A DNA stretch of 64,000 nt from Bacillota bacterium (GCA_021820465.1 JAKADP010000005.1:9661-73660), one strand, 5' to 3'. Shown: positions 19,107-59,089, counted from the stretch's first letter. Translations and numbers: made by a program. The notes: generated by a model from the letters alone, not told the origin.

Positions 19107-19370
19107 GCCGCAGCGGCCACGCCGCTCCCTCCTGCCGTAAGCTGTCTCTATCGAGCTGACGCTGTCGTCGACTGTCATTCCGTGAACGCCTGCGAGAGCC
19201 GCATGGTTACGTGAAGTGTACCACGGGGGGCCGGGCTCGACATCCCGACGTCCGAGCGGATCGCCGGGTGGCTGCCACCAGCGGGTTGGCCGATACCTCC
19301 TATGGGATTGCGTGCGGCCGGGAGTCCTTTTATGCTGGACCAACAAGCTTACGGGGCAAGGTGGTGGCCG

Positions 19371-19823
19371 ATGCAGCTGGCAGAGGTGTATCGGCGACTG
19401 GAGGCCGGGTCCCACCGGCTGACGCCGCAGCGGCACCTGCTCCTGCGCACGCTGGCGGGTCACGGGGACACACCCCTGTCTGCCGAGGAGCTGCAGGCGC
19501 GGGCGGAGGCGGAGCATCGCCTCCGGGTGGGACTGGCCACCGTATACCGCACGCTGGACCTCTTGGAGTCCTTAAACGTCGTGGCCCGAATTGAAGACCG
19601 CGGGGCCCAGGACACGTCCGCCCGGTTTGTCTGGGCAGGTGAGGACGGAGCCGGTCAGCCCAAGCGCGTGTGTGTGCGCTGTGGGGAGGTGGGCCCCATT
19701 CCGGCGGACTGGACCGCAAGCGTCTGGCAGCGGCTCAAGGACGAGCAGGGCTTCGAGGTTGTGGACCAGGAGGTGCGCGTCTATGGCGTGTGCCAACCGT
19801 GCCGGGGATCCACACTGGAGTAG
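19371..19823 (+). CDS. Fur-family transcriptional regulator (atypical: structural CxxC pairs only)
   Basis: A winged-helix region (RLTPQRHLLL...LSAEEL...VGLATVYRTLDLL) and two CxxC pairs (CVRCG, CQPC). ATG at 19371 follows AAGGTGGTGG. Confidence 0.85.
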   Translation: MQLAEVYRRLEAGSHRLTPQRHLLLRTLAGHGDTPLSAEELQARAEAEHRLRVGLATVYRTLDLLESLNVVARIEDRGAQDTSARFVWAGEDGAGQPKRVCVRCGEVGPIPADWTASVWQRLKDEQGFEVVDQEVRVYGVCQPCRGSTLE

Positions 19824-19833
19824 GAGGCGTGAC

Positions 19834-20193
19834 ATGATTCGCCTATACCACTACCGCGGGTGAAGCACGTGCGTGAGGGCGAAAGCGTGGCTTTCGCAGG
19901 CGTTGGCCGACCAGAAGCTGTCGGCCGCTTTGCTGGAGGAGCGGGATCTCATCCGCGACCCCCTGTCGGCCCACGAGGTGCACGACCTGGTGCGCCGGGC
20001 CGGCGGCATCGAGGCGGTGCTGGCGACCCGAAGCCCGGCGTACCGGGCGCGGGTGAGCGCCGTCGCCGATGAGGCCGGCTGGCTCTCAGCCATGGCCGAA
20101 GAGCCGCGGCTCATCCGCCGACCCATTCTGGAGACGGATCGGGGCATGGCGGTGGGCTTCTCCGAGGCCAATTGGCGGCGGCTGCTGGACTGA
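19834..20193 (+). CDS. ArsC/Spx-family thioredoxin-fold protein with in-frame TGA (19861-19863) at the first Cys of CxxC: candidate selenoprotein
   Basis: TAGGAGG (19821-19827), 6 nt, then ATG at 19834. The translation is MIRLYHYRG-[TGA]-STCVRAKAWLSQALADQ... and is open to 20193. It aligns with the Spx/ArsC N-terminus (M..LY....C..CRKA..WL). The track shows only the fragment starting at GTG 19873. Confidence 0.7.
19879..19897 (+). promoter_or_regulatory. SECIS-like hairpin
   Basis: GCGAAAGC-GUG-GCUUUCGC is an 8-bp perfect stem that starts 15 nt after the TGA. Confidence 0.55.
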
Positions 20194-20465
20194 CGGCCCC
20201 GCCCCGCGGCGGCCGGTCCCGCCACACCGTGCGCTCTACGACGGCCGCGAGCCTTCCAACACGGATGCCCCTGGCACTATCTTCCGCGGCAGCCGCCAGC
20301 CCCGCAGAGACGCCGTGCCGCGCAAAGCACGCGCCCTGCCTGGAGCATCTCCTGGAGCCGGGGACAAGCGGAAGCCGTCGGTCAGCGCCCGATCCATTGA
20401 CACGCCGCTATACTTAGAGAAGTGACTGGGGTTCTGAAGACGACGACAGCAAGGGGGTGGTGCGC

Positions 20466-21470
20466 ATGATGACGGAGCCGCTGACCCGACCCGCGCTGCA
20501 GGACAAGTTTGGACGGGTCGTCCACAAGCTGCGCATTTCCCTGACGGATCGGTGCAACTTTCGGTGTGTGTACTGCATGCCCGAGGATGCGGAGTTTCTT
20601 CCCCACGACGAGTTGCTGACCGCTGACGAGATTGTGCGGGTAGCCGGGCTATTTGCCGAAATGGGCGCGGACACGATTCGGCTTACCGGCGGGGAGCCGC
20701 TGATGCGGCCCGACGTTGTGGACATCACCCGGCGGCTGAAGCAGCTTCCCGGGGTGCATCGGGTGTCGATGACCACCAATGGGTTCATGCTACCGCGCCT
20801 GGCCGCTCCCTTGGTCCAGGCTGGCTTGGACGGCGTGAACGTGAGCCTCGACACCCTGGATCCGGTGCGGTTTCAAGTGCTGGCGCGCCGCCGCTACCTC
20901 AAGGAGGTGCTGGCGGGCATCCAGGCGGCCGAGGCGGCGGGGCTCACCCCGGTCAAAATCAACACGGTCGTCATGCGCGGTGTCAACGACAGCGAGATTG
21001 GGGAGTTTCTGGGGTGGGCCCGCGACACAGGGCACGTGGTCCGGTTCATTGAGTTTATGCCGCTGGACGCCGACAACATCTGGCAGCGGCAGACGGTGGT
21101 GACGCTGGCCGAAATTTTGGAGGTGGCGCGGAGCATCGGGCCGGTGGACGAAGTGGGAGAGGACAAGGCCAGCCCGGCGCGCCTGTATCGCTTTCGCGAC
21201 GGCCGCGGCACCTTCGGGGTAATCGCGTCGGTCTCGGAGCCGTTCTGTGCGGACTGCGACCGAGTGCGGCTCACGGCCGAAGGTCGGATTCGCAACTGCC
21301 TGTTTGCCACCGACGAGACCGACCTGCGGGCGCTGCTGCGCAACGGAGCAGACGACGAAGCGCTCGTCCAGCGGATGCGCGACGCGGTCGCCGAGAAGTG
21401 GGCCGGCCATCTCATTGCCCAGCCAGGCTTTGTCAAGCCGGAGCGCACCATGCACCGGATCGGCGGCTGA
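20466..21470 (+). CDS. moaA: GTP 3',8-cyclase (molybdenum cofactor biosynthesis protein A)
   Basis: The radical-SAM motif is LRISLTDRCNFRCVYCMP, and the C-terminal cluster Cys motif is CADCDRVRLTAEG. ATG at 20466 follows AAGGGGGTGG. The track start is GTG at 20457. Confidence 0.9.
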   Translation: MMTEPLTRPALQDKFGRVVHKLRISLTDRCNFRCVYCMPEDAEFLPHDELLTADEIVRVAGLFAEMGADTIRLTGGEPLMRPDVVDITRRLKQLPGVHRVSMTTNGFMLPRLAAPLVQAGLDGVNVSLDTLDPVRFQVLARRRYLKEVLAGIQAAEAAGLTPVKINTVVMRGVNDSEIGEFLGWARDTGHVVRFIEFMPLDADNIWQRQTVVTLAEILEVARSIGPVDEVGEDKASPARLYRFRDGRGTFGVIASVSEPFCADCDRVRLTAEGRIRNCLFATDETDLRALLRNGADDEALVQRMRDAVAEKWAGHLIAQPGFVKPERTMHRIGG

Positions 21471-30075: not shown

Positions 30076-30897
30076 CTAGTCCGTCAGGGGAAGCACCATC
30101 TGGGGCTCCGGCACCACATGATCCGCGCGGCCCTGCACCACGCCAGTGCCGATGGAGAAGTATTCGATGACGTGGCTGCCCCAGCCGTGGCTCTTCTCTT
30201 GAATGCGGACCGCCACGATGCCCTCGGCCCCCATTTCGGCCGCTTCGGTCTGCATCCGCTCCATGGCCAGCTCCCGCGAGTCGTAAAGCGCCTGGGTGAA
30301 GTTGGCCATCTCCACGTTTTGGCCCATGGCGCGCACGCTCTGCGCGATCGTCTGATGCGCCACGTGGTAGACGCAGTTGCCCATGGTGAGGCCTACGGGC
30401 TTGTACCCGGCCTTTAAGAGCGTCCAGAAGTCCTGGCCCGACAGGTCACTGGTAAAGGGCTTGCCGTGGGCCGGCCGGTGGCTCTCGCCCAGGGACCGCA
30501 CGGCCGTGCCGACGGCCATGAACTCGGCGAGGCCCGGGCCCCACTCGTAGCGGTTCACGTCCAGCCGCACGCCGATAACCCCGTCCGCTCCCAGCTGGTC
30601 CGCCTCTTCCTCCATGCGGGACATCGCAAGCTCGCGCGCGTGGTACATGGCCTGCGTCAGCACCGTCAGCTCTTCGTTCTTGCGGAACATCTGAGACTGG
30701 TAGCCAATGTGGTAAATCGAACTCCCCACGACGAGGCCCAGCGGCTCGAAGCCTGCCTCGCGCACCAGCAGGAACTCGTTCACGGTGAGGTCAGAGGTCC
30801 ACAGGCGGTGCTCGCTCTGGCGCATGCGATTGAGCCGCTCCAACGCATGCTGCGGCAGATCGCTCGCTCCACTCGATGCCGGCGTGTCCGAAGTCAT
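30076..30897 (-). CDS. tandem YbjQ/UPF0145 (putative heavy-metal-binding domain) protein
   Basis: Two YbjQ-like repeats: GLVVGSSIYHIGYQ ... ADGVIGVRLD ... MAVGTAV, then GLTMGNCVYHVA ... AEGIVAVRI ... FSIGTGV. ATG follows GGAAGGAAGG. Confidence 0.8.
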   Translation of the reverse strand: MTSDTPASSGASDLPQHALERLNRMRQSEHRLWTSDLTVNEFLLVREAGFEPLGLVVGSSIYHIGYQSQMFRKNEELTVLTQAMYHARELAMSRMEEEADQLGADGVIGVRLDVNRYEWGPGLAEFMAVGTAVRSLGESHRPAHGKPFTSDLSGQDFWTLLKAGYKPVGLTMGNCVYHVAHQTIAQSVRAMGQNVEMANFTQALYDSRELAMERMQTEAAEMGAEGIVAVRIQEKSHGWGSHVIEYFSIGTGVVQGRADHVVPEPQMVLPLTD

Positions 30898-30951
30898 AGT
30901 TCGCCTTCCTTCCAGAGTCCAGAGTTATCTGATCGTCGGGTGCCATCGAAT

Positions 30952-31998
30952 CTAGGGCTCTACGGGCGCCCCCTCCGTGTTGGCGAGGGTCTCGCCAGAC
31001 TCCACGGGGCCCGCATTGAGGTCCAAGGCGTGGTCCGCCAGATTCACCACCGGCCGGACAGCTGGCGCGGGATGCTTGCCGTCGAGCCGTCCGACGGCCG
31101 TGCCAATCACCGTCAGGTGAATGATGTGGTCCCGAAAGCTTTGCATAGTGCCGTACCCCATTCCGTACCCGCTGCCATAGCCGCCGCCCCAGCCGCCCAT
31201 GGCCGGCCGCTCTACCTCAATTTCGTCGACGGTCATATGCCACTCGGCGCCCAGCACCCCGTCGGCCGCCACCTCGCGGGCTTGGGCGCGCAGTCCGCCC
31301 ACCACGAAATCCCGAGCTTCATACACGGCGCGCGAGAAGTCGGGCACCTCCTGGTTGGTCCAGCTATTTTCGGAGTAGTTGGCTTGCCACGTGGTCATCA
31401 CGTAGTAGGCGGTGGTGGAAAACGACAGCGTGAGGGGTATGTAGCCCGCGCGGAACAGCGCCAGCGTATCTTCGGCCGTCATGCCGCCCATAAAGGGCCG
31501 GGCGGGGGCGGGCTGGCCCTCAAATGCGACGGCGGTCCCAAACGCCGTGAACTCCGACAGGCCGGCCCCCCACTCCGGGTACCGCACCTCGACGCGGCAG
31601 TTCACCACGCCGTGGGCGCCCAGCATCGCCGCTTCCGCCATGAGGCGGTCGATGGCCGTCTGGCGAGCGGTCGTAATGGCCAGGGTGAAGGGGCGAATGT
31701 CGCCATTGCCCCATGAGTTGGTGAGCCAGCCGGGATAGAAGGCCGCATGCATCACACAGGACCCGGCCACCTGGCCCAGTGCCCTCAAGCGCAGGTGGCG
31801 CGAGACGGCAAAGTCGGGCGCCGTGAGCGTGCTGGTCCACGGCGCCTGGCCGGACTTCAGTCGGTTCAGGCGGTCAATGGCGTCGACGGGGAGCCGCCCC
31901 GCCTCGAGTGCCTCGATGCTCGCGGCTTGCCGTGCCAGCCGCGCCGCCTCGTCGTGGGGGTCCGGCCGGGGGCCGGACCGCCTGCTCCAAATCGGAAT
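30952..31998 (-). CDS. tandem YbjQ/UPF0145 protein, paralogue of 30076..30897, with a probable AUU start
   Basis: The track gives only 30952..31788 (TTG). The frame is open upstream to a TGA at 32025-32023, and that stretch encodes LPVDAIDRLNRLKSGQAPWTSTLTAPDF. This is homologous to LPQHALERLNRMRQSEHRLWTSDLTVNEF in the paralogue. There is no ATG, GTG or TTG in that stretch. ATT at 31998 lies 6 nt after AAGGAGGT. Confidence 0.7.
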   Translation of the reverse strand: MPIWSRRSGPRPDPHDEAARLARQAASIEALEAGRLPVDAIDRLNRLKSGQAPWTSTLTAPDFAVSRHLRLRALGQVAGSCVMHAAFYPGWLTNSWGNGDIRPFTLAITTARQTAIDRLMAEAAMLGAHGVVNCRVEVRYPEWGAGLSEFTAFGTAVAFEGQPAPARPFMGGMTAEDTLALFRAGYIPLTLSFSTTAYYVMTTWQANYSENSWTNQEVPDFSRAVYEARDFVVGGLRAQAREVAADGVLGAEWHMTVDEIEVERPAMGGWGGGYGSGYGMGYGTMQSFRDHIIHLTVIGTAVGRLDGKHPAPAVRPVVNLADHALDLNAGPVESGETLANTEGAPVEP

Positions 31999-32046
31999 AA
32001 GCGCACCTCCTTGGGGACAGCGTCAGCTGCCGCGCGCCGCCGCAGC

Positions 32047-35094: not shown

Positions 35095-35124
35095 GCGCTG
35101 CGAGCGCCCCGGGTTCGTGGCTTG

Positions 35125-35160
35125 GCCCCCGGCCAGCGGCATGCTGGCCGGGGGCTTTGT
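35125..35160 (+). terminator. intrinsic terminator after the prsA-like gene
   Basis: A 13-bp perfect stem GCCCCCGGCCAGC / GCTGGCCGGGGGC with loop GGCAT, followed by TTTGT. Confidence 0.75.
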
Positions 35161-35232
35161 GGCGTGCCGCGAGGCAAGCCCGTGGGAGACGGCCGATGGG
35201 TGTGCTATCGTGCGGGCAGAGGGGGTCGACGC

Positions 35233-35982
35233 ATGGGAGAGCCGATCGAGACGCTGGATGGATGGTTCGTGTGGCACCAGCTCACCACGGTGGACTGGCC
35301 CACGTGGTGGGGGTGGCCCCCGGCGGATCGGGACGCGGCGATGGCCGAGCGGCTGCTCCTGTGGGAGGCATGGACCGCGCTGGCGGGCAACCAGCAAGGC
35401 AGTGTGGGTGTATATCAAATGGCGGGCGACCGCGCCGACTTCCTGACGATTCACCTGCGGCCGACGCTGGATGAGCTCATTGATCTGAAGGCGTCGCTGC
35501 AGCGAACAGCGTTTTACGCCGTGGAGCGGCCGCACTACTCGTACATATCCGTTGTCGAACTGGCGACCTACGTGGCCAAGGGCAACCCGGATCCCGAAAC
35601 CAATCCGGAGCTTCGGGCGCGCCTGCACCCGAGCCTGCCGCCCCGGCACGCCGTGTGCTTCTACCCCATGTCCAAGCGGCGCCAAGGGGCGGACAACTGG
35701 TACATGACGGATCGGGCGGCGCGAGCCCATCTCATGCGAGGCCATGGCGCCGTGGGACACAAGTACAGCCAGCAGGTGACACAGATCATCTCCGGATCCC
35801 AGGGGCTGGACGACTGGGAGTGGGGCGTCACCCTGCTGGCCGACGACCCCATCTGGTTTAAAAAGTTAGTGTACGAAATGCGCTTTGACGAGGCCAGCGC
35901 CCGGTTCGCGGAGTTTGGCCCGTTTTACGTGGGCACGCGGCTGGATCCCCAGGGATGGACCCGGCGCCTGGGGGGGCGGTGA
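35233..35982 (+). CDS. hemQ: coproheme decarboxylase (HemQ/ChdC, chlorite-dismutase-like)
   Basis: The internal ATG at 35233 gives MGEPIETLDGWFVWHQL... The protein also shows CFYPMSKRR..G.NWY and the MRFDEASARFAEFGPFYVG C-terminus. Confidence 0.9.
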   Translation: MGEPIETLDGWFVWHQLTTVDWPTWWGWPPADRDAAMAERLLLWEAWTALAGNQQGSVGVYQMAGDRADFLTIHLRPTLDELIDLKASLQRTAFYAVERPHYSYISVVELATYVAKGNPDPETNPELRARLHPSLPPRHAVCFYPMSKRRQGADNWYMTDRAARAHLMRGHGAVGHKYSQQVTQIISGSQGLDDWEWGVTLLADDPIWFKKLVYEMRFDEASARFAEFGPFYVGTRLDPQGWTRRLGGR

Positions 35983-37037
35983 GCCGCCGGCCGACCCCGC
36001 GACTGCTCACGGCCCTGGCGGGGGGAGTTCCTGACCGCACGCCGGTGTGGTTCATGCGGCAGGCGGGCCGGTATCAGCCGGCCTATCGGGCGCTGCGCGC
36101 CCGCTACAGCATGCTGGAGCTGGCCAGCACGCCGGCGCTGGCCGCCGAAGTGACGGTGGCGCCCGTGAGGGATCTGGGGGTTGATGCCGCGATCTTGTTT
36201 TCCGACATCATGGTGCCCATGGGCCCCGCAGGCGTCGCCTTTGAGATTCAAGAGGGGGTTGGGCCCGTGGTGGCCCGCCCCATCCGCGACGCGGCGGCGG
36301 TGGCGGCGCTGCGCGAGGTGGACCCCGCGCGCGATTTGCCGGAGGTGCTGGAAGCGGTGGAGCGCTCGACGGCCGCCCTGGGGGGGGTGCCGCTGATTGG
36401 CTTTGCCGGGGCGCCGTTTACGCTGGCGAGCTATCTCATCGAAGGCCGCCCCAGCCGGCAGTACGTGGAAACGAAGCGCCTCATGTGGAGCGACCCTGGG
36501 CTGTGGGACGCCCTCATGGAGCACTTGTCGCGCGTCGTGGGCGCGCACCTGGCGGCCCAGGCCCACGCCGGGGCGTCGGTGCTGCAGGTGTTCGACAGCT
36601 GGGCGGGCGCGCTGTCGCGGGCGGACTACCAGGCCCGGGTGGCGCCTCACATGCGGCGCCTGTTTGCCCAGCTGGCCCCGCTGGGCGTGCCGGTCATTTC
36701 CTTCGCCGTGGGCGCGTCCCATCTGGTGGAGGTGATGGCCGACGGCCCCACCGCCTTGTCTGTGGATTGGCGAGAGCCCCTGGGGCATGTCCGGCAGCGG
36801 GTGCCGCGGGGCATGCCCCTGCAAGGCAATTTGGACCCCGTGGCGCTGTTGGCGCCATGGCCCCATCTGGTCAGCCAGGCAGAAGCCGTGCTGGCCGAGG
36901 GAGGGAGCCAGGGATTCGTCTTCAACCTGGGCCATGGCATTCTGCCGTCCACGGATCCGGACACGGTGCGGCGGCTGGTCCAGTGGGTTCATGATGCGGC
37001 GGCGCCCGGTCGGACAGACGGGGGGGCCCGCCCATGA
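35979..37037 (+). CDS. hemE: uroporphyrinogen decarboxylase
   Basis: Motifs PVWFMRQAGRY and ILFSDI. GTG at 35979 overlaps the hemQ stop (GTGA). The track start is at 35955. Confidence 0.9.
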   Translation: MSRRPTPRLLTALAGGVPDRTPVWFMRQAGRYQPAYRALRARYSMLELASTPALAAEVTVAPVRDLGVDAAILFSDIMVPMGPAGVAFEIQEGVGPVVARPIRDAAAVAALREVDPARDLPEVLEAVERSTAALGGVPLIGFAGAPFTLASYLIEGRPSRQYVETKRLMWSDPGLWDALMEHLSRVVGAHLAAQAHAGASVLQVFDSWAGALSRADYQARVAPHMRRLFAQLAPLGVPVISFAVGASHLVEVMADGPTALSVDWREPLGHVRQRVPRGMPLQGNLDPVALLAPWPHLVSQAEAVLAEGGSQGFVFNLGHGILPSTDPDTVRRLVQWVHDAAAPGRTDGGARP

Positions 37038-37978
37038 CGCGCGAAGGCCCGGTGGGGGTGTTGGTGATGGCGCACGGGGTGGCCGCGGGCGTGGAGGACA
37101 TTCCCCGCTACTATGCCCACATTCGCGGCGACCGGCCCCGAAACCCCGCCGTGGAGCAGGAGCTGGTGGACCGGTATCGGGCCATCGGCGGACATTCGCC
37201 CCTCATCGAGATCACGGCGGCCGTGGCGCGCGGCCTAGAGGAGGAGCTGGCGCGGCGCCACGGTCCGGCCCGGTATCGCGTGGCCTTCGGATTTCGCCAT
37301 GCCGCACCGTCGATCGAGGACGCCCTCTTAGAGCTCCAGACGCGTGGAGCCGTGCGCTACATCGGCCTGGTGCAGGCTCCGCACTATTCCGCGATGAGCG
37401 TGGGGGCGTATGAGCGGGCGGCCAGTGCCGGCCCGCTGCCGGGCCACACCATTGGGGCGTGGCACGTGGAGCCCCGCCTGATGCACCTGCTGGCGGACCG
37501 GGTGCGGGAGGCGTCGGCGTCGCTGCCGGTGCCACTGGAGGACACGGCGGTGGCGTTCACCGCGCACAGCCTGCCGGAGCGGATCCTGAGCACGGGCGAC
37601 CCATATCCGGGGCAGCTGGCCGAGACGGCTGCCGCAGTCGCCCGCATCCTGGGGCTCACCACCTACGACGTGGGCTGGCAGAGTGCGGGACGCACGCCGG
37701 AGCCCTGGATGGGCCCCGATGTGCTGGAGCTTTTGCGCTCGTGGGCCGCCGCCGGGCGGCGGGCGGGGCTGATCGCCCCCGTGGGGTTTGTATCGGACCA
37801 CTTGGAGGTGCTGTACGATCTCGACGTGGAGGCGCGGGCTTTGGCGGAATCGCTGGGGCTCGCCTTCGCGCGCACGCGGTCGCTGAACGCGGACCCGGAG
37901 TTCATCCGGGTGCTGGCCGACGTGATCGACCGGGACGAGCGGGATCGGGAGCCGGGCGGGGGTGAGGGCCGTGCGTGA
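37034..37978 (+). CDS. hemH: ferrochelatase (coproporphyrin ferrochelatase type)
   Basis: Motifs LVMAHG, YY.HIR and GFVSDHLEVLYDLD. There is an ATGA overlap with hemE. Confidence 0.9.
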   Translation: MTREGPVGVLVMAHGVAAGVEDIPRYYAHIRGDRPRNPAVEQELVDRYRAIGGHSPLIEITAAVARGLEEELARRHGPARYRVAFGFRHAAPSIEDALLELQTRGAVRYIGLVQAPHYSAMSVGAYERAASAGPLPGHTIGAWHVEPRLMHLLADRVREASASLPVPLEDTAVAFTAHSLPERILSTGDPYPGQLAETAAAVARILGLTTYDVGWQSAGRTPEPWMGPDVLELLRSWAAAGRRAGLIAPVGFVSDHLEVLYDLDVEARALAESLGLAFARTRSLNADPEFIRVLADVIDRDERDREPGGGEGRA

Positions 37979-39365
37979 GTTGGCCGTGGTGGGGGCGGGG
38001 ATGGCTGGTCTGGCGGCGGCCCACCGATTGGAGCAGCTGGTGCCTGATGCCCGCGTGACCGTGTACGAGGCGGCGGATCGGGTGGGGGGCGCCGTGCGAT
38101 CCGAGGCGGTGCCCCCGGGTTCGGTGGTGATGGAGGCGGGGCCGGATTCCCTCTTGGCCCGCAAGCCCGCCGGAGTGGCGCTGGCGGAGGCGGTGGGCTT
38201 GGCCGGCGAGCTGGTGCCCTCCCACCCCGGGGCCCGCGGGGCCCTCTTGTATCTCGACGGCCAGCTCTGGCCACTGCCCCCGGGCGTGGTGGCGGGGGTG
38301 CCTCTTCAGCCTGAGCGCCTGGAGGGGTCGCCCCTGCTGACGGCCGAGGGCCGGGCAGCCCTCCTGGCGGATTTGGACGCGCCGCCGGAGTCTGTGACGG
38401 CAGACGTCAGTCTGGGCGGGTTTCTGGCACGGCACCTCGGGGATGAGTGGGTCGACCGCGTCGCGTCCGCCTTGCTGTCGGGAATCTACGCAGGCCACAT
38501 TCGCGAGCTGTCCCTGCTGGCCACCTACCCCGAGCTGGCGGCTGCCGCCCGCCACGGAAGCCTCATGCGCGGCTTGGCCGCCGAGCGCCGGGCCCACCCG
38601 CCGCGGCCGGGTCCGGTATTTGTGACGCTGGTGGGCGGGCTGGAGACGCTGCCGCGCCGGGTGGCTGCGCGGCTCCGGACTCCGGTGCACACCGGAGTGG
38701 CCATCCGGAGCGTGACGGCCGAAGGCGCCCGCTATCGGCTCACCGGCGACCGCGAGGACCACGTCGTGGACGGCGTCGTGGTGGCGACGCCCGCTTGGGT
38801 GGCGGCGGGCCAGCTTCAGCGGCTGGCGCCGGCGGCGGCCGCGCGGCTGCGCGAGGTGCCCTACGCGAATCTGGCGGTGGTGACGCTGCGATATGCCTCA
38901 GGCGTTGTGCCGCCCCCCGGCATGACGGGGGTGCTGGTGCCCGCGGGCAGCGGGGTGGCGCTGACCGCCATCACGTTTGTGGGTCAAAAGTGGGCCCACC
39001 GCACGGACCCGGTGGACGTGCCGGTGCGCGCGTTTTACGGGCGTGCGGCCACGAGTCGGGGAGAGGACAACGTGCTCACGTGGTCTGACGACCGGTTTCG
39101 CCGCGAGGTGGCCGCTGACCTGCGCCAGGTGCTGGGATGGACGGCCGACCCCTACGCAGTGCAGGTGCATCGGCATCCGGCGGCGATGCCCCAGTATCTG
39201 GTGGGCCATCGGGATCGGGTGGCCGAGGTGGAAGCCGAGGTGGCACGCTGGCCGGGACTGGCCCTGGCGGGCGCCGCTCTGCATGGGGTGGGCATCCCTG
39301 ATGTCATCCGCAGCGGCGAGGAAGCGGCCGAGCGCGTGGCTCGCTCGGGGGAGTTGCGGCCCTAA
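37971..39365 (+). CDS. hemY: coproporphyrinogen/protoporphyrinogen oxidase (HemY/CgoX)
   Basis: FAD fold LAVVGAGMAGLAAAHRL, in the hemEHY order. GTG at 37971 overlaps the hemH end. The track start is at 37962. Confidence 0.85.
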   Translation: MRELAVVGAGMAGLAAAHRLEQLVPDARVTVYEAADRVGGAVRSEAVPPGSVVMEAGPDSLLARKPAGVALAEAVGLAGELVPSHPGARGALLYLDGQLWPLPPGVVAGVPLQPERLEGSPLLTAEGRAALLADLDAPPESVTADVSLGGFLARHLGDEWVDRVASALLSGIYAGHIRELSLLATYPELAAAARHGSLMRGLAAERRAHPPRPGPVFVTLVGGLETLPRRVAARLRTPVHTGVAIRSVTAEGARYRLTGDREDHVVDGVVVATPAWVAAGQLQRLAPAAAARLREVPYANLAVVTLRYASGVVPPPGMTGVLVPAGSGVALTAITFVGQKWAHRTDPVDVPVRAFYGRAATSRGEDNVLTWSDDRFRREVAADLRQVLGWTADPYAVQVHRHPAAMPQYLVGHRDRVAEVEAEVARWPGLALAGAALHGVGIPDVIRSGEEAAERVARSGELRP

Positions 39366-43010: not shown

Positions 43011-43484
43011 ATGGAGCCCCGCATCATCCCCGAGTTTCAAACCGAAGACATTCACGGCACGCCGTTTCGGGCCTCGGATTTGGTGGCGCGCGCGCCCGTG
43101 CTGGTGGTGATGCTGCGCGGGCTGTTCTGACCGTACTGCCGGCGGCAGCTCGTGCAGCTGCGCGACCAGTACGCGGCCTTGCGGGCGGCGGGCATCCAGG
43201 TGGTGGCTATCGGGCCGGACCGCCCGCAGGCGCTCCGCGCCCACTTTGAGAAGGAGCGCCTGCCCTTCGAGGCGATTGCGGACCCCTCCCAGCAGGTGCT
43301 GAAGGCGCTGGGCCAGCAGTATCGGTGGTACACGGTGGGGCTCCTGCCCGCCATGCTGGCCATTGCCCCGTCGGGGGCGGTCGTGTGGCAGCACTATGCG
43401 AAGAGTCCTCAGGATCTCCCCAGCCTGACCGAGGCCGCGGCGGCCCTGGGCCGGCGGCTGGACCATCAGGGCCAGGACGCGTAG
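43011..43484 (+). CDS. AhpC/TSA (peroxiredoxin-like) thioredoxin-fold protein with in-frame TGA (43128-43130) at the first Cys of CxxC: candidate selenoprotein
   Basis: GGGGAGG, 7 nt, then ATG at 43011. The translation is MEPRIIPEFQTEDIHGTPFRASDLVARAPVLVVMLRGLF-[TGA]-PYCRRQLVQLRDQYAALRAAGIQVVAIGPD... This matches the family pattern vvLvFyRG.WCPyC..qL. The track lists only 43152..43484. Confidence 0.7.
43145..43161 (+). promoter_or_regulatory. SECIS-like hairpin
   Basis: GCAGCU-CGUGC-AGCUGC is a 6-bp stem that starts 14 nt after the TGA, with GUG in the loop. Confidence 0.4.
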
Positions 43485-44989: not shown

Positions 44990-46054
44990 TCACAAGAGAA
45001 AGTGCGCCACCACGCCCGTGAGAAGACCGGCCACCAGCACCAAGGTGGCCAGCCGCGCCAAGTCCGCCTTCGAGATGGCCTGGCTCACCATAGCCATGGA
45101 CGGCAGGCTGATGGCGGGCAGCGTCATCATGAGGGCGCCACCCGCCATGCTGGACAGGCCATAACTCATGAGGGACGAGACGATGGGAATTTCCCCCGCG
45201 GTGGGAATGACAAACAGCGTGCCCGCGATGGCTAGGCCGAAAAACAGCAGGACGCTCTCCCCGAGCCCCGGACCCATCGCGGGAAACAGCCAGGCGCGCA
45301 CCGCGCCCAGCACCCCCACGATGATGAGGTACTCCGGCACCAAGGTCCGCGCCAGCCGCGCCAGCGCCTTGAAGAACCGCGCCGGCCGCGAGCCGGTCTG
45401 CGCGGGGGCGGGCACGTCAACCTGGTGGGCGACGGCGGCGGCTTCGGCCCTCGTGGCCCAGCGGTTTCCGATGTACGCAGCACCCGCCACCAGGAGGAGT
45501 CCCATCCCAATCCGCAGGAGCGCCCAATTCCATCCCAGCACGAAGCCCATAAAGACGATGGTGGCGGGGTTCAGCACCGGGTTGCCCACCCAGTACGCAA
45601 AGACGGCGCCGGTGGACACGTTCTGGCGCTTCAAGCTCACGGCAATGGGGGCCGAGCAGCACGTGCACATCATGGACGGCACGGCCGCAGCGGCCGCGAC
45701 GCCCGCCGCCCCCCAGTTGGCCCGGCCCAGCAGCGTCACCAGCCAGCCGTCCGGCAGGAGCGACTCGATGCCGGCGGCAATGACCATGCCAGCAATAAAC
45801 GCGATCCAAATGTCCTTCACGTAGGCGACGGCATAGGATATGGCGGCGGCCACGCCCACGGGGGGGGCGGCGCGATGCGTGCCCGTCACGATGGACGCCC
45901 CCAGCGTGTGCGAGGTGGCGACCGCAAACGCCTTCACGAAGTAGGGGCTCCACTTGGCGATGAAAATCCCCGCCAGCGCCAGCAGGATGAACGCCACCAC
46001 CGGCCATACGCCGGACGGCCTTGCCGGGCGGACGGGCGTTTCCAGTGAATTCAC
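44990..46054 (-). CDS. predicted permease (ArsP/DUF318-type, Cys-rich TM motif)
   Basis: Multi-TM protein with VPSMMCTCCSAPIAVSL. GTG at 46054 follows GGGGAGGA with a 6-nt spacer. Confidence 0.8.
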   Translation of the reverse strand: MNSLETPVRPARPSGVWPVVAFILLALAGIFIAKWSPYFVKAFAVATSHTLGASIVTGTHRAAPPVGVAAAISYAVAYVKDIWIAFIAGMVIAAGIESLLPDGWLVTLLGRANWGAAGVAAAAAVPSMMCTCCSAPIAVSLKRQNVSTGAVFAYWVGNPVLNPATIVFMGFVLGWNWALLRIGMGLLLVAGAAYIGNRWATRAEAAAVAHQVDVPAPAQTGSRPARFFKALARLARTLVPEYLIIVGVLGAVRAWLFPAMGPGLGESVLLFFGLAIAGTLFVIPTAGEIPIVSSLMSYGLSSMAGGALMMTLPAISLPSMAMVSQAISKADLARLATLVLVAGLLTGVVAHFLL

Positions 46055-46245
46055 GGTGTGTCCTCCCCAATAGCTCATTGTCGCGTGGCTATCGTATCGG
46101 CGGTGCATCCCGTCCGCGCCGGTTCATACGATGGTTGCATTCCTACGCTTTACGCCTGCATGCTACTTGTCGGATTGGCCCCGTCCCGGTATGATCGCCC
46201 CAGCAGAGGGTGGGCGCCGGGGTGTTGTCCTTTAGGGAGGTGCGC

Positions 46246-47187
46246 GTGGAGCTACAAGATTTGGCTCTCTTCAAGTCGATCATCGAGTGCGGCAGCATGA
46301 CGCGGGCGGCGGACGCGTACGGCATGACCCAGCCCTCGGTGAGTCGACATTTGCAGAGGATGGAGCAGGAGATGGGGACCCTCCTGATCGACCGCGCCGG
46401 CACGCCGCTGGTGCCGACGCCAGAAGGGCGGCAGTTTTTGGCCTTCGTGGAGTCGGTGCTCGGCGAGTGGGTGGGCCTGCAGCAGAAGCTGGGTCGGCCC
46501 GATCGGATCACGGGAGACCTCAGGCTGGGGGTGACCGCCTCGTATGCGGGCGGGGCGGCCGTGACCCGGTGGATGGGGCGCTTTGTGGACCAGTACCGCG
46601 GGGTGCGGCCGCACCTCATGACCATGGATTCACGGGCCGTCGAAGCGGCCGTGGGACAGCATCGCGTGGCGGCGGGCTTTATGGGGTGCCCGCCCCAGGA
46701 CTGTTGCCTCGACAGCGTCCCGGTCGAGCGGGACACCCTCGTGCTGGTGACGCCTGCCACGGGGGAGTGGGCCAGCCTCACGGACCCGGTCCATCCCGAT
46801 GCGCTCGCCTCTATGCGGTTTGTGCGGCGCGAGCGCGGCAGCGGAACCTGGGAGACGGTGGAGCGCGCGCTGGTCGAGGCGGGCCGGTCGCCCCACCTGA
46901 GCGTCGTCATGGAGGCCGACTCGGTCGAGGCCGTCTTGGCGGCGGTGGAGGCCGGCGTGGGGGCCAGCTTCGTCTCAGCGGCCGCCGTCGCACGCCGCGA
47001 TGGCCCCGAGTTGCGGTCGTTCCACGTGCGCGGGGTCGTGCTGCGGCGGCAGGTATACTTGGTGTACGACCCCACGGTCCTGATGCGCGATCCGCTGGCG
47101 GCACTGTTTTGCCGCTTCATGGAGCAGGCGGCCGCGGCCGACGCCGGGGCGGTTCGCCCGCTGCCGCGGCCGCGCCGCATCGGCTGA
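46246..47187 (+). CDS. LysR family transcriptional regulator
   Basis: The HTH is LALFKSIIECGSMTRAADAYGMTQPSVSRHLQRMEQEMG. It is divergent from the permease. Confidence 0.85.
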   Translation: MELQDLALFKSIIECGSMTRAADAYGMTQPSVSRHLQRMEQEMGTLLIDRAGTPLVPTPEGRQFLAFVESVLGEWVGLQQKLGRPDRITGDLRLGVTASYAGGAAVTRWMGRFVDQYRGVRPHLMTMDSRAVEAAVGQHRVAAGFMGCPPQDCCLDSVPVERDTLVLVTPATGEWASLTDPVHPDALASMRFVRRERGSGTWETVERALVEAGRSPHLSVVMEADSVEAVLAAVEAGVGASFVSAAAVARRDGPELRSFHVRGVVLRRQVYLVYDPTVLMRDPLAALFCRFMEQAAAADAGAVRPLPRPRRIG

Positions 47188-47286
47188 CCGCTTTGGCCGG
47201 CAGGGGTCGACGATGACGGATCGGGACCGGATGGATTTCCGACAGACGCCGGATGACGGACGCAGGTACGCGAAGGGGATGGTCTG

Positions 47287-47601
47287 ATGAGTGATGTGAT
47301 GGAAATGGGGCAGGCCACATTTGACGAAGTGCTGGCGTCGGGGCGCCCCGTGGTGGTGGACTTTTGGGCACCCTGGTGTGGGCCGTGCCGCGTCCTGTCG
47401 CCACTGGTCGAAGAGGTGGCGGCGGACCAGCGAGGGGCGGTCACCGTGGGCAAGGTGAACGTGGACGAGCACCCAGACTTGGCCAGCCGCTACGGCGTCA
47501 TGAGCATCCCCTCGGTGATACGCTTCGACGAGGGCCGTGAAACCCACCGGGTGGTGGGGGCCGTCAGCAAGCCTGAACTGCTGCGCCGCCTGGGACTGTA
47601 G
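47287..47601 (+). CDS. trxA: thioredoxin
   Basis: The active site is VDFWAPWCGPCR, and GVMSIPSV carries the cis-Pro. Confidence 0.9.
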   Translation: MSDVMEMGQATFDEVLASGRPVVVDFWAPWCGPCRVLSPLVEEVAADQRGAVTVGKVNVDEHPDLASRYGVMSIPSVIRFDEGRETHRVVGAVSKPELLRRLGL

Positions 47602-47645
47602 AGCCCGGACCGGCGAGGTGCCGACACACGAACGGAGGGATCCCC

Positions 47646-48053
47646 ATGGCAGAAGTTACGGCGACCAAAAAGGGTACCCACTACACGGTGGCCGAAGCGG
47701 GCAACCTTGGCGAGTTGACGAAGAAAGAGTTTATTGCCCAAACGCTGGGGTTCACAGGGATGCAGGTGTCGCTGAACCGGGCGACGCCCGGTCAGGCGTC
47801 GCCCTACCTCCATGCCCACCGCCAGCACGAGGAGCTGTACCTGTTTCTGTGGGGGACGGGGGAGTTCCAGGTGGACGGAGAGGTGTTGCCGGTGAAGCCG
47901 GGCACCATGATTCGGGTCGCGCCCGAAGGGAAGCGGGCTTGGCGCAACAACTCGTCGAGCGATCTGCTGTTCATCGTGGTGCAGGCCAACGTGGGAACCC
48001 TGACGGGCGAGGACGGCATTCGCTTGGATGGGGATCCGACGTGGCCCGCGTAG
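47646..48053 (+). CDS. cupin domain protein
   Basis: The cupin motif is HAHRQHEELYLFLWG.G...DGE. Confidence 0.8.
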   Translation: MAEVTATKKGTHYTVAEAGNLGELTKKEFIAQTLGFTGMQVSLNRATPGQASPYLHAHRQHEELYLFLWGTGEFQVDGEVLPVKPGTMIRVAPEGKRAWRNNSSSDLLFIVVQANVGTLTGEDGIRLDGDPTWPA

Positions 48054-50258: not shown

Positions 50259-50415
50259 AATTGGAACGGCTCCCTTCTAATCGTTCGCGCCGGACGGGCC
50301 GGTTCCTGCCCTGAGTCGGCAAATTGATCGGCCGTCGTCGGTGGGGCGTGGCGTCTTGCGATGGCCGTGGGGCCATCGCAGCCGGGATCGTGGGTGCCTC
50401 GGAGAGGGGGAGCGC

Positions 50416-51303
50416 ATGCCGGATCGCAAGACGCTGGCGTACGTCGGCGCCACGCTGCTGTTGTGGTCGTCGGCGTTTGCCGGCATTCGCAGTGCGCTGG
50501 GGGGGCTGTCGCCGGGGCACGTGCTCCTGCTGCGGTTTGGCATCGCGTCGTTAGTTCTCCTGGGATGGACCCGGGCCGCCCGGCTGCCCTGGCCGCCTCG
50601 GCGGCTCGTCGCCCGCCTGGCTCTGATTGGCGTCGTGGGCATTTCCCTCTATCAAGGCTGCCTCACCTTTGGGGAGCAGATGGTCCCGGCGGGGACCGCC
50701 AGCTTCATCGTGGCAGCCGCCCCGGTGTTCACGGCGCTGCTGGCGGCGCTGTGGCTGGCCGAGCGGCTCTCCCGCCGGACCCTACTCGGGCTGGCGGTCA
50801 GCATGCTGGGCGTGGCGGTCATCAGCTTCGGATCGGGATCGGCAGCGTTTCATCAGCGTGCGCTCCTCATCGTGGCGGCGGCCATCGCGACTGCCGTCTT
50901 CTTTGTGGCGCAGAAGCCACTGTTGGGCCAATATCCGGCCCTGGCGGTGACGGCCTGGGTGACCTGGGCGGGGACGCTGCCGCTCTTGGTGTTTGCCCCA
51001 GGCCTGGCGGCCAACGTGGCGCACGCCCCGCCCGCCGCGGTCTGGTCGGTGGTGTATTTGGGCGTGCTGCCTGCGGCGGTCGCGTATGTGCTGTGGGCGC
51101 ACGCCCTCCAGCGGGCCCCGGCTGGGCAGGTGTCCACCTGGCTCTACCTGAACCCCTTTCTCGCGACAGCCATTGGGTGGGTGTGGCTGGGCGAGGTGCC
51201 AGCCTGGACAGCGCTGGCAGGCGGCGTGGTCGCCGTCGCGGGCGTGGTGCTGGTGAACTGGCGGCCTGTGCGTGCGACACCGCCCTCTGCCGCCCCGTCT
51301 TGA
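50416..51303 (+). CDS. EamA/DMT family transporter
   Basis: Ten TM-like segments, with LLWSSAF at the N-terminus. The start is the internal ATG at 50416, after GGGGGAG. Confidence 0.85.
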   Translation: MPDRKTLAYVGATLLLWSSAFAGIRSALGGLSPGHVLLLRFGIASLVLLGWTRAARLPWPPRRLVARLALIGVVGISLYQGCLTFGEQMVPAGTASFIVAAAPVFTALLAALWLAERLSRRTLLGLAVSMLGVAVISFGSGSAAFHQRALLIVAAAIATAVFFVAQKPLLGQYPALAVTAWVTWAGTLPLLVFAPGLAANVAHAPPAAVWSVVYLGVLPAAVAYVLWAHALQRAPAGQVSTWLYLNPFLATAIGWVWLGEVPAWTALAGGVVAVAGVVLVNWRPVRATPPSAAPS

Positions 51304-51345
51304 CGCCCTGGGGGCCCTCTGGTACAGCTACGGCCATACCATGCC

Positions 51346-51801
51346 GTGGGGAGGCGCGCGGTGGACCGATCGGTGGGGCAGTGGCTCGGGGTGGCGGGTG
51401 CCATTGGCGCGGTGGCGGCGCTCGTCATGGGGAGTTGGGGGGCGGCCCCCCTGGCGGCCTATATCGGCGACGCGCTGCAGCTCGCCCTGCTCGTGGTGGC
51501 GTTTTTGGTGGGGCGGCGTGCCGGGCGCGAGCGGAGGCGGCCCGGCTGGCTCGGAGGACTGGCCGGCGTGGTGGGCGGCTTGGTGGCCAGCCTCGGGGAC
51601 TTTGCGGTTCACTTTCCGGTGTCGCGGTTCCACACCGTCGTGAACGCCGGCCAAACCGTGACGGCGAGTCAGCAGGCGGCCGTGGCCAACAGCGTGGGTG
51701 GCCGCGTGACGGAGCTGGTGGTGCTCACGCTGGTCATGGGGGTGTTCGGCATCATCGCGGGGACCATCGGCGGAGCCACCGGCAAGCCCTCGGCCGTGTA
51801 G
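51346..51801 (+). CDS. hypothetical membrane protein
   Basis: Hydrophobic segments and coding-like third-position bias. I recognise no motif. Confidence 0.5.
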   Translation: MGRRAVDRSVGQWLGVAGAIGAVAALVMGSWGAAPLAAYIGDALQLALLVVAFLVGRRAGRERRRPGWLGGLAGVVGGLVASLGDFAVHFPVSRFHTVVNAGQTVTASQQAAVANSVGGRVTELVVLTLVMGVFGIIAGTIGGATGKPSAV

Positions 51802-58360: not shown

Positions 58361-59089
58361 ATGCAGCGGGAACCGGCGTGGCGATGGCTGGCCGCGGCCG
58401 CAGGGCTTGCGGTGGCGCTGGCGGCTTACGGGATGGGGTCGCGGCTGTCGGCGGCGGCCAGCCGGCCCGCGCCGGTCATCATTCGGGCGCCCATCGCCGA
58501 GCGGGTGCTGGCGCTGACGTTTGACGACGGGCCCACCGCCCGATGGACGCCGAAAATTCTGCGAGTGCTGCGGCAGAGCCACATCCCGGCCACGTTTTTT
58601 GTGATTGGGCGGCAGGCCGAGCGCTATCCGGCGCTCGTAGCCCAGGAAGTTCGGGACGGAATGGAAGTGGGAAGCCACGGGTACAACCACCTGGGGCTCT
58701 TCGGCCGGAGCGCCGCTGTGGTGGCTGCCGAGGTGGAGCAGGCCCAGCAGGCCATCGTGGCGGCCGGCGCGCCGGCGCCCACGCTGTATCGCATGCCGGC
58801 AGGGATTTACGATCAGACGGCGCTGTCGGTGCTGGGCGGGCTCCACTACGTGGTGGTGGGCTGGAGCATCGATCCGAGGGACTGGCGGCACCGCTACACC
58901 GCGGCGGCCATGGCGACGCTGGTGGAAAATCAGGCGGAACCCGGCGCGATCATTATTTTCCACGATGGCCCCACTGGCGGCCCGGCCACCGTGGAGGCCG
59001 TCCAGCAGCTGATTCCCGTGCTCCAGCGCGAAGGGTACCGCTTCCTCACGGTGTCTGCCATGGTGAAGCTGGTCAAGGGCCGCCTATAG
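58361..59089 (+). CDS. polysaccharide deacetylase (NodB family)
   Basis: Motifs TFDDGP, HIPATFF, GSHGYNH and LYRMP. Confidence 0.85.
   Translation: MQREPAWRWLAAAAGLAVALAAYGMGSRLSAAASRPAPVIIRAPIAERVLALTFDDGPTARWTPKILRVLRQSHIPATFFVIGRQAERYPALVAQEVRDGMEVGSHGYNHLGLFGRSAAVVAAEVEQAQQAIVAAGAPAPTLYRMPAGIYDQTALSVLGGLHYVVVGWSIDPRDWRHRYTAAAMATLVENQAEPGAIIIFHDGPTGGPATVEAVQQLIPVLQREGYRFLTVSAMVKLVKGRL

What the first reader, a model, noticed from the sequence alone, without database searches (positions are those of the whole stretch)
19834..20193. ArsC/Spx-family gene with TGA in place of the first Cys of CxxC (candidate UxxC selenoprotein)
A near-consensus SD (TAGGAGG, which contains the stop codon of the upstream Fur-like gene) sits 6 nt before ATG 19834. 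The translation is MIRLYHYRG, then TGA (19861-19863), then STCVRAKAWLSQ..., in one frame to 20193. In Spx/ArsC-family proteins the N-terminus reads M-x-x-x-Y-x-x-x-x-C-x-x-C-R-K-A-x-x-W-L, so the TGA lies exactly on the nucleophilic Cys. The fragment in the ORF track (start 19873) would lack both the first beta-strand and the redox motif. An 8-bp hairpin begins 15 nt downstream of the TGA.
Basis: partly seen in the sequence, partly recalled or inferred. Interest (0 to 1): 0.8.

Follow-up and report, generated by a model that had tools for sequence, protein, structure and literature searches.

The report
Selenocysteine-containing ArsC/Spx-like redox gene
This is a real small redox-protein gene whose in-frame TGA almost certainly encodes selenocysteine rather than a stop; it is a sound but unsurprising catch, because ArsC-like UxxC selenoproteins are already a known class and public databases merely hold this one as a truncated fragment.

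Summary
ATG 19834 follows an SD that contains the upstream Fur gene's stop. TGA 19861-63 is in frame and the frame runs to the stop at 20191-93, giving 119 aa. An 8-bp hairpin starts 15 nt after the TGA.

- With U read as C, the protein matches Pfam ArsC.
- All 12 distinct close orthologues (Thermaerobacter- and Sulfobacillus-type Bacillota) keep TGA at that column. Two orthologues, one in the same gene neighbourhood, have TGC.
- Upstream codons differ mostly synonymously (49 vs 10).
- The hairpin meets all published bacterial SECIS constraints, shows compensatory changes, and is built from codons that are rare in this genome.
- TGA is a normal stop elsewhere in the window, including for this gene.
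- A second conserved UxxC gene (Prx-like, TGA 43128-30) lies in the same window.
- Published surveys list Thermaerobacter and Sulfobacillus as Sec-utilizing.

selA/B/C/D could not be checked in the source genome itself.

ArsC-family UxxC selenoproteins are already catalogued, so this is a new member of a known kind. This clade sits nearest the Spx/MgsR subfamily, not the curated NF041106 selenoprotein model, and is always paired with a Fur-family regulator. Its biochemical role is inferred, not shown.

The parts
19332..19823 (+). Fur-family regulator gene, the upstream partner. The start is uncertain (19302, 19332 or 19371). The stop TAG is at 19821-19823.
   Evidence: Pfam FUR PF01475, E 4.6e-16. 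Called as 163 aa in L001. Found immediately upstream of the ArsC-like gene in every orthologous locus whose upstream sequence was examined. Keeps both CxxC pairs but has lost the His-rich regulatory site in the window's clade.
19821..19827 (+). Shine-Dalgarno sequence TAGGAGG, overlapping the Fur stop codon, 6 nt before the ATG
   Evidence: Read directly. A GGAGG-like SD plus an ATG/GTG 8-9 codons before the TGA is present in all orthologues.
19834..20193 (+). Full-length coding sequence of the ArsC/Spx-like selenoprotein: 119 aa, U at residue 10, stop TGA at 20191-20193
   Evidence: Translation. Pfam ArsC covers residues 5-116. Aligns to Spx over residues 1-118. The AF2 model of the Cys orthologue has pLDDT 92 and the ArsC/Spx/YffB fold.
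19861..19863 (+). In-frame TGA read as selenocysteine, the first position of the U-S-T-C motif
   Evidence: Conserved in 12 of 12 close orthologues and in a distant soil clade. It is TGC in two orthologues.
19879..19897 (+). SECIS-like hairpin: 8-bp stem, GUG loop, 23 nt from the UGA to the loop, -10.1 kcal/mol
   Evidence: In the alignment, 93.8% of cells are paired and 3 pairs carry compensatory changes; slid-partner controls give 27-51%. The stem is built from the rare codons AAA and CTT. It meets the bSECIS constraints quoted.
19873..20193 (+). Truncated ORF (106 aa, GTG start) as held in public protein databases; a mis-call of the same gene
   Evidence: P0001 is this fragment. P0021, an 87%-identical relative, is annotated 'arsenate reductase [Thermaerobacter sp.]'.

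Best explanation
The gene at 19834-20193 encodes a 119-residue thioredoxin-fold protein of the ArsC/Spx/YffB superfamily. Codon 10 (UGA) is decoded as selenocysteine.

Proposed decoding: the ribosome reaches the UGA, and SelB carrying Sec-tRNA(Sec) binds the hairpin that starts 15 nt downstream (GUG loop). This inserts Sec instead of terminating. The second TGA at 20191-93 has no such hairpin and terminates normally.

The product carries a U10-S-T-C13 motif at the N-cap of helix alpha-1, the nucleophile position of this fold. It most likely acts as a selenol/thiol-disulfide oxidoreductase that cycles through a selenenylsulfide.

It is co-transcribed, and probably translationally coupled, with a Fur-family regulator. 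This suggests a role in an oxidative-stress or metal-redox response.

Shown here: the gene structure, TGA conservation, Cys orthologues, hairpin conservation and covariation, fold, and operon linkage.

Inferred: actual Sec insertion, SelB binding, the redox chemistry and the physiological role.
For: - Family and fold: Pfam ArsC at 48.8 bits. Closest solved sequences are Spx, with C10xxC13 aligned on U10xxC13. The Cys-orthologue model has pLDDT 92, with TM 0.80-0.84 to YffB, Spx and ArsC, and the motif Cys sits between beta-1 and alpha-1.
- TGA conservation: 12 of 12 distinct close orthologues spanning 39-99% identity, including Sulfobacillus harzensis DSM 109850. Also conserved in a distant soil clade.
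- Cys orthologues carry TGC at the same column, one of them in conserved synteny.
- Upstream coding signature: 49 synonymous vs 10 non-synonymous codon differences, and an SD plus start codon in every orthologue.
- Not a sequencing error: the sequence is identical in four independent runs.
- Not a code change: TGA terminates 10 of 22 confident genes, including this one.
- Hairpin: meets all four bSECIS criteria; shows covariation; uses the rare codons AAA (8% of Lys) and CTT (3.9% of Leu) to form the stem; is absent or degraded in the Cys forms.
- Sec use by the genome and lineage: a second conserved F-U-P-Y-C gene in the same window. Thermaerobacter and Sulfobacillus are listed as Sec-utilizing by the SelD/SelA/SelB criterion. 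Sulfobacillus has a Sec-FDH and a Sec peroxiredoxin PrxU reported from a proteomics study.
Against: - No selA, selB, selD or tRNA-Sec lies in the 64-kb window. The rest of the source genome could not be searched.
- The source organism is only inferred to be Thermaerobacter-like, from an 87%-identical relative's annotation and GC content.
- Folding energy of the wider region is no better than shuffles in this GC-rich context (z = -0.82).
- No Rfam model matches.
- The stem has one mismatch in L037 and needs a bulge in L007.
- The stem codes for conserved residues (K-A-W-L-S), so part of its conservation is protein-level.
- There is no experimental evidence of Se incorporation or of any activity.
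Confidence: 0.85

Rival explanations
1. The Sec decoding is as above, but the protein is not an enzyme. It would be a Spx/MgsR-type regulator that binds the RNA polymerase alpha C-terminal domain, using a selenenylsulfide (U10-C13) instead of a disulfide as its redox switch. It might work together with the adjacent Fur-like regulator.
For: The best NCBIfam match is TIGR01617, the Spx/MgsR family (55.9 bits). The orthologue in L015 and the more distant homologues in L016 and L020 exceed its 75.05 cutoff. The closest solved sequences are Spx, E 1.8e-9, aligned over 1-118, with the Spx G52, R60 and R91-R92 positions retained. The gene is linked to a transcription factor in every orthologous locus examined.
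Against: - The window protein itself is below the TIGR01617 cutoff and far below the Spx-specific models (52.9 vs 123).
- It lacks the ~12-residue C-terminal tail of Spx (119 vs 131 aa).
- Structurally, YffB is as close as Spx.
- Orthologues L008 (U-T-T-A) and L010 (U-T-T-S) have lost the second Cys, so an intramolecular switch is not conserved.
- Sec is otherwise known from catalytic sites, and neither review lists any Spx-type selenoprotein.
Confidence: 0.12
2. The TGA is a genuine stop. The real product is the 106-aa fragment starting at GTG 19873, as databases annotate it, or the gene is a decaying pseudogene.
For: All gene callers output the truncated form. Sec machinery was not demonstrated in the same genome.
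Against: - The fragment lacks beta-1 and the active-site motif.
- The nine codons before the TGA, with their SD and start, are conserved under purifying selection in 12 lineages.
- The TGA column is conserved down to 39% identity.
- GTG 19873 is not conserved as a start; orthologue gene calls begin at different places, giving 85-106 aa.
- Cys orthologues are full length.
Confidence: 0.03
3. The UGA is read through without selenium, for example by near-cognate tRNA-Trp or tRNA-Cys, or through a lineage-wide reassignment of UGA.
For: Read-through would also yield a full-length protein and would explain conservation of the flanks.
Against: TGA ends about half of the confident genes in the window, including this one, so there is no reassignment. 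Trp at a nucleophilic Cys position would inactivate the motif. The conserved, covarying hairpin at SECIS spacing and its absence in the Cys forms are specific to the SelB mechanism.
Confidence: 0.02
4. It is a true glutaredoxin-coupled arsenate reductase (R773 ArsC type) with Sec as the nucleophile, as the database name 'arsenate reductase' implies.
For: Same superfamily and fold. The U aligns with the catalytic Cys12 position of ArsC. A UxxS 'arsenate reductase' selenoprotein family exists.
Against: TIGR00014 scores 25.8 against a cutoff of 106. There are no ars genes next to it; the neighbours are Fur and MoaA. The ArsP_1-family permease at 44990-46123 is 25 kb away.
Confidence: 0.04

Closest known systems
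ArsC-like / 'arsenate reductase-like (UxxC)' bacterial selenoproteins (Zhang 2006, PMC1794560; Peng 2016, PMC5029168 Table S3; NCBIfam NF041106 ArsC_rel_Se_1)
   Same: Same superfamily (PF03960/COG1393). Sec is at the first position of the CxxC motif, decoded through a hairpin just downstream. Biochemical function is unknown.
   Different: This clade does not reach the curated NF041106 model (28.4 vs 85 bits) and is closer to TIGR01617. It has a fixed Fur-family partner and its own SECIS sequence. I could not determine whether it is one of the two 'arsenate reductase UxxC' groups counted in 2016.
Spx / MgsR redox-sensing RNA-polymerase-binding regulators (TIGR01617; PDB 1Z3E, 3GFK)
   Same: Best sequence match among solved structures. 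The CxxC motif sits at the same position, with similar length and fold, and several orthologues pass the TIGR01617 cutoff.
   Different: Sec replaces Cys10. There is no C-terminal tail. The Spx-specific models are not met. Some orthologues lack the second Cys. RNAP binding is untested.
YffB (PA3664; PDB 1RW1), a proposed glutathione-dependent thiol reductase
   Same: Top structural match (TM 0.84). Similar size, no C-terminal extension.
   Different: Sequence similarity is weak (E 1e-3). NF008107 'ArsC family reductase' scores 33 against a cutoff of 121.
Bacterial SECIS consensus (bSECISearch model, as quoted in PMC13188914)
   Same: 3-nt loop, 8-bp stem, G then U at the start of the loop, 23 nt from the UGA to the loop, -10.1 kcal/mol. 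All are within the stated limits.
   Different: Nothing in the structure departs from the model. SelB binding is untested.

Membership tests
Bacterial selenoprotein gene (Sec-UGA + bSECIS) | The in-frame UGA aligns with Cys in homologues | tested here: met
   TGC in L034/P0016 and L036/P0017. Cys10 of Spx aligns with U10.
Bacterial selenoprotein gene (Sec-UGA + bSECIS) | The UGA and both flanks are conserved as coding sequence among orthologues | tested here: met
   12 of 12 orthologues keep the TGA. Upstream codons show 49 synonymous vs 10 non-synonymous differences. An SD and start are present in all.
Bacterial selenoprotein gene (Sec-UGA + bSECIS) | A downstream hairpin meets the bSECIS constraints: loop 3-9 nt, stem 4-16 bp, G in the first two loop positions, 16-37 nt spacing, MFE <= -7.5 | tested here: met
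   Loop GUG, 8 bp, 23 nt, -10.1 kcal/mol. Covariation is supported.
Bacterial selenoprotein gene (Sec-UGA + bSECIS) | selA, selB, selC and selD are present in the same genome | not testable with these tools
   None is in the window. Lineage-level support comes from Peng 2016 Table S2 and from a second UxxC gene in the window.
Bacterial selenoprotein gene (Sec-UGA + bSECIS) | Selenium is actually incorporated into the protein | not testable with these tools
   Needs 75Se labelling or mass spectrometry.
Pfam ArsC family PF03960 | Score above the gathering threshold over the whole domain | tested here: met
   48.8 bits vs 24, profile positions 1-78 of 79. The fold is confirmed on the Cys orthologue.
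NCBIfam NF041106 ArsC family (seleno)protein | Score at or above the curated cutoff of 85 bits | tested here: not met
   28.4 bits for the window protein; 20-44 bits for relatives.
TIGR01617 Spx/MgsR family | Score at or above the curated cutoff of 75.05 bits | tested here: inconclusive
   The window protein scores 55.9 (below). The close-clade orthologue in L015 scores 77.3 and the Cys form P0017 scores 76.3 (above), as do the more distant L016 (79.3) and L020 (87.4) homologues. L010 scores 67.1 and P0016 55.5 (below).
Spx proper (NF002459 / SpxA equivalogs) | Spx-specific model score, C-terminal tail, and binding to the RNAP alpha-CTD | tested here: not met
   52.9 vs 123 bits. The protein ends at the position matching Spx residue ~115 of 131. 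RNAP binding itself is not testable here.
Glutaredoxin-dependent arsenate reductase ArsC (TIGR00014) | Equivalog score at or above 106 bits, and an ars operon context | tested here: not met
   25.8 bits. The neighbours are Fur and MoaA, not ars genes.

The most novel reading that the evidence does not exclude
The protein might not be a housekeeping oxidoreductase. It could be a selenium-based redox sensor or relay working with its obligate Fur-family partner. One option is a Spx-like RNA-polymerase-binding regulator whose switch is a selenenylsulfide. The other is a dedicated selenol reductase/oxidase acting on the Cys4-Zn site of a Fur-like repressor. In the window's clade, that repressor has lost its His-rich metal-sensing site. 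Either would be the first selenoprotein embedded directly in a transcription-control circuit.
Probability: 0.12. Interest if true: 0.75.

Novelty: new member of a known kind. Interest (0 to 1): 0.3.

Why it matters
In practice, it corrects an annotation. Every close copy of this gene in public protein databases is a headless 85-106 aa fragment, one labelled 'arsenate reductase', that lacks its active site. The same is true of the Prx-like gene 23 kb away.

Scientifically, it adds a clade nearest to Spx/MgsR to the ArsC-superfamily selenoproteins. The clade has a conserved Fur-family operon partner and natural UxxC, UxxA, UxxS and CxxC variants among close relatives. That makes it a convenient natural series for asking what Sec adds over Cys in this fold.

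It does not change what is known about Sec decoding.

Tried and rejected
- **tRNA and RNA models:** ARAGORN found no tRNA in the window or in seven loci. Rfam gave no hit at gathering thresholds or at E <= 10; bacterial SECIS elements evidently match none of its models.
- **Other in-frame TGAs:** the junctions at 50281-51801 (+) and 59073-60713 (-) are simply adjacent genes. A window-wide scan gave mostly off-frame noise, and only 43128 had a redox motif.
- **Sec machinery in the window:** Pfam annotation of about 40 ORFs found no SelA, SelB or SelD.
- **Source genome:** the genome-contig scan did not contain it (best match 75%).
- **Literature:** no paper co-mentions Thermaerobacter and selenocysteine in its main text. 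The link was found only in a supplementary table.
- **Transcription signals:** the promoter/terminator consensus scan found nothing, which is uninformative at 68% GC.
- **Folding energy:** whole-region energy vs shuffles is not significant for either gene, so the structural argument rests on conservation, covariation and codon choice.
- **Rejected readings:** genetic-code reassignment, sequencing error, pseudogene, and true arsenate reductase. The reasons are given under the rival explanations.

Full report
**1. The observation**

The sequence is as described.
- The upstream Fur-family gene ends with TAG at 19821-19823, inside TAGGAGG (19821-19827).
- Six bases later, ATG 19834 opens a frame reading MIRLYHYRG, then TGA (19861-19863), then STCVRAKAWLSQ..., through to a stop at 20191-20193.
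- That stop is also TGA. The product is 119 residues counting the recoded position.
- The only mechanical ORF is the 106-aa fragment from GTG 19873.
- The hairpin GCGAAAGC-GUG-GCUUUCGC lies at 19879-19897, 15 nt after the TGA.

**2. What the protein is**

- With the TGA read as Cys, the protein matches Pfam ArsC (PF03960) over residues 5-116, at 48.8 bits against a cutoff of 24.
- Against solved structures, the best sequence matches are Spx regulators (E 1.8e-9). They align over residues 1-118, with Spx C10-x-x-C13 on U10-x-x-C13. ArsC-related proteins and YffB score lower.
I modelled the full-length Cys orthologue P0016 instead, with the family alignment: pLDDT 92.2.
- Foldseek places the model equally near YffB (TM 0.84), Spx (0.80) and ArsC (0.82).
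- The motif Cys sits between strand beta-1 and the start of helix alpha-1. That is the nucleophile position of the thioredoxin fold.
- NCBIfam scores for the window protein:

| Model | Score (bits) | Cutoff (bits) |
|---|---|---|
| TIGR01617 Spx/MgsR | 55.9 | 75.05 |
| NF002459 Spx | 52.9 | 123 |
| TIGR00014 arsenate reductase | 25.8 | 106 |
| NF041106 ArsC family (seleno)protein | 28.4 | 85 |

- The close-clade orthologue in L015 (77.3) and the Cys form P0017 (76.3) pass TIGR01617, as do the more distant L016 (79.3) and L020 (87.4) homologues.

**3. Is the TGA a conserved, translated codon?**

A protein search returned close homologues only as N-terminally truncated gene calls (85-106 aa). 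Two ~41%-identical full-length proteins carry YRRCSTC and YSRCTTC. I then read the DNA of orthologues from three sources: named genomes, metagenomes and encoding contigs.

- All 12 distinct members of the close clade have TGA at the same column. They are the window, L005, L006, L015, L007, L008, L010 and L037-L041, spanning 39-99% identity. L010 is Sulfobacillus harzensis DSM 109850.
- Each has a GGAGG-like SD and an ATG or GTG 8-9 codons upstream of the TGA.
- Among the six Thermaerobacter-type sequences, the upstream codons differ by 49 synonymous and 10 non-synonymous changes. The window and L005 differ at six codons, all synonymously.
- The two Cys forms carry TGC at this column. P0016 lies in the same arginase-M20 peptidase-Fur-ArsC neighbourhood, so it is a positional orthologue.
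- A distant soil clade (LEVYLKPT-TGA-TSCRKAVADLEG) also has TGA here.
- The window sequence is identical in assemblies from four independent sequencing runs, so it is not an error.
- TGA ends 10 of 22 confident genes in the window, and this gene itself, so the genetic code is standard.

**4. The hairpin**

The bacterial SECIS model quoted in a 2026 review (PMC13188914) sets four constraints. The hairpin meets all of them.

| Constraint | Required | Observed |
|---|---|---|
| Apical loop | 3-9 nt | 3 nt (GUG) |
| Upper stem | 4-16 bp | 8 bp |
| G in the first two loop positions | yes | G, then U |
| UGA to loop | 16-37 nt | 23 nt |
| MFE | <= -7.5 kcal/mol | -10.1 kcal/mol |

- In an ungapped alignment of the 12 Sec forms, 93.8% of cells are paired. 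When the 3' partners are slid by 1-3 columns, only 27-51% are paired.
- Three of the eight pairs carry compensatory double changes: G-C to A-U in L039, and A-U to C-G or G-C in L007, L008 and L010.
- No column shuffle reached the observed covariation score (0 of 500).
- The stem codes for conserved residues (K-A-W-L-S), so I checked codon choice. It uses AAA (8% of Lys codons in this window) paired with CTT (3.9% of Leu codons). Ala before Trp is GCG in 12 of 12.
- The Cys forms have different residues there and no equivalent hairpin. L034 keeps only a weak remnant.
- Caveats: the folding energy of the wider region is not better than shuffles (z = -0.82). Rfam has no matching model. L037 has one mismatch, and L007 needs a bulge.

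**5. Does the organism decode Sec?**

- The window holds no tRNA and no selA, selB or selD.
- The source genome was not in the searchable genome collection (best hit 75%), so this test could not be run directly.
- Three indirect lines support Sec decoding.

  **(a) A second candidate selenoprotein in the window.**
  - ATG 43011 (preceded by GGGAGG) opens ...VLVVMLRGLF-TGA(43128-43130)-PYCRRQL..., ending at 43484.
  - Reading the TGA as Cys extends the AhpC/TSA match from profile positions 39-123 to 5-123. The score rises from 46.5 to 72.9 bits.
  - All close homologues in the database are again truncated.
  - The TGA and upstream codons are conserved in three orthologues at 70-82% identity.
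  - A GCAGCU-CGUGC-AGCUGC hairpin lies 20 nt from the UGA.

  **(b) Published surveys of the lineage.**
  - A relative 87% identical to the ArsC-like fragment is annotated as Thermaerobacter sp., and the window is 68% GC.
  - Peng et al. 2016 (PMC5029168) define the Sec trait by SelD/SelA/SelB.
  - Their Table S2 of Sec-utilizing organisms lists T. marianensis (4 selenoproteins), T. subterraneus (5), Sulfobacillus acidophilus (7) and S. thermosulfidooxidans (8).

  **(c) Other reports on Sulfobacillus.** Its genomes are reported to encode Sec-containing formate dehydrogenases (PMC4378227). A Sec peroxiredoxin PrxU was reported from a proteomics study (PMC7409299).

**6. Context and likely role**

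- A Fur-family gene lies immediately upstream, abutting or overlapping the start, in every orthologous locus whose upstream sequence I examined, including the Cys form. No promoter or terminator consensus separates the two genes.
- MoaA follows in the Thermaerobacter-type loci. A possible MoeA/MobB pair follows in L008 and L010, judged from sequence motifs only and not scanned.
- The soil clade is paired with a small BFD-like [2Fe-2S] protein instead and has a different hairpin. The Fur linkage is therefore clade-specific.
- In the Sulfobacillus-type loci, the Fur protein keeps the canonical His-rich site (HRHHH...CxxC, DHE). In the window's clade this has become GQPKRVCVRC and DQE, while all four Zn-site cysteines remain.
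- Two Sulfobacillus-branch orthologues read U-T-T-A and U-T-T-S. Sec, not the U/C pair, is therefore the conserved element. This fits a catalytic nucleophile resolved by an external thiol better than a Spx-type intramolecular switch.
- My preferred reading is a selenol/thiol oxidoreductase in a stress or redox module controlled by the Fur-like regulator. This functional part is inference.

**7. Comparison with what is known, and verdict**

- ArsC-like selenoproteins have been catalogued since 2006 (PMC1794560).
- Peng et al. count 'Arsenate reductase 2, UxxC' in 14 genomes and 'Arsenate reductase-like (UXXC)' in 12.
- The 2022 and 2026 reviews list a TIGR00014-type UxxS family and an NF041106-type UxxC family, and no Spx-type one.
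- The window's clade meets neither curated model and is nearest TIGR01617. It may be a third subfamily, or one of the 2016 groups under another label. I could not tell which.
- Either way, it is a new member of a known kind, decoded by the standard mechanism.
The finding is solid, but its interest is modest (0.3).
- The main residual novelty is the untested possibility of a selenium-based regulatory role with the Fur-like partner.

Noticed in passing
window 43011-43484 (+); TGA at 43128-43130; hairpin at 43145-43161: A second candidate selenoprotein: an AhpC/TSA (Prx-like, SelL-related) thioredoxin-fold gene with TGA at the first position of F-U-P-Y-C. It has an SD (GGGAGG) before ATG 43011. 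The TGA is conserved in three orthologues (70-82% identity). All database copies are truncated to 87-110 aa.
   Followed up: yes
window 19332-19823 (+) and orthologues in L005, L038-L040 vs L007, L008, L010, L034: The Fur-family partner has lost its His-rich regulatory metal site in the window's clade (HRHHH -> GQPKR, DHE -> DQE, LSAEEVH -> LSAEELQ) but keeps both CxxC pairs. L006 and L041 are intermediate. It may have become a Cys4-only, possibly redox-sensing, regulator.
   Followed up: partly
L008 3028-3040 and L010 3028-3040: The two Sulfobacillus-branch orthologues (L010 is S. harzensis DSM 109850) read U-T-T-A and U-T-T-S, so the resolving Cys of the UxxC motif is lost while Sec is kept.
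   Followed up: partly
L016-L033 (soil metagenome contigs): A distant ArsC/Spx-like clade (passes TIGR01617) also has TGA at the first Cys (LEVYLKPT-U-TSCRK). It has its own hairpin (CGACCU-GGA-AGGUCG) and a conserved upstream BFD-like [2Fe-2S] gene (CRCN...CGGSC) instead of Fur.
   Followed up: partly
window 20457-21470 (+); L005, L006, L039-L041; L008 and L010: Molybdenum-cofactor genes recur next to the Fur/ArsC-like pair. MoaA lies downstream in the Thermaerobacter-type loci. In the Sulfobacillus-type loci the neighbours look MoeA- and MobB-like, judged from sequence motifs only. The meaning is unknown.
   Followed up: no
window 35095-39365 (+): A cluster of four adjacent haem-biosynthesis-type genes: chlorite-dismutase family, uroporphyrinogen decarboxylase, ferrochelatase and an amine-oxidase-family flavoprotein. 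From general knowledge, this resembles the coproporphyrin-dependent haem pathway of Gram-positive bacteria.
   Followed up: no
window 30079-32022 (-): Two adjacent genes each carry a YbjQ_1 (putative heavy-metal-binding) domain. The first shows two matched stretches of the domain.
   Followed up: no
window 44990-48053: A redox/metal-flavoured neighbourhood lies just downstream of the Prx-like gene: pirin, an ArsP_1-family permease, a LysR regulator, thioredoxin and a cupin.
   Followed up: no
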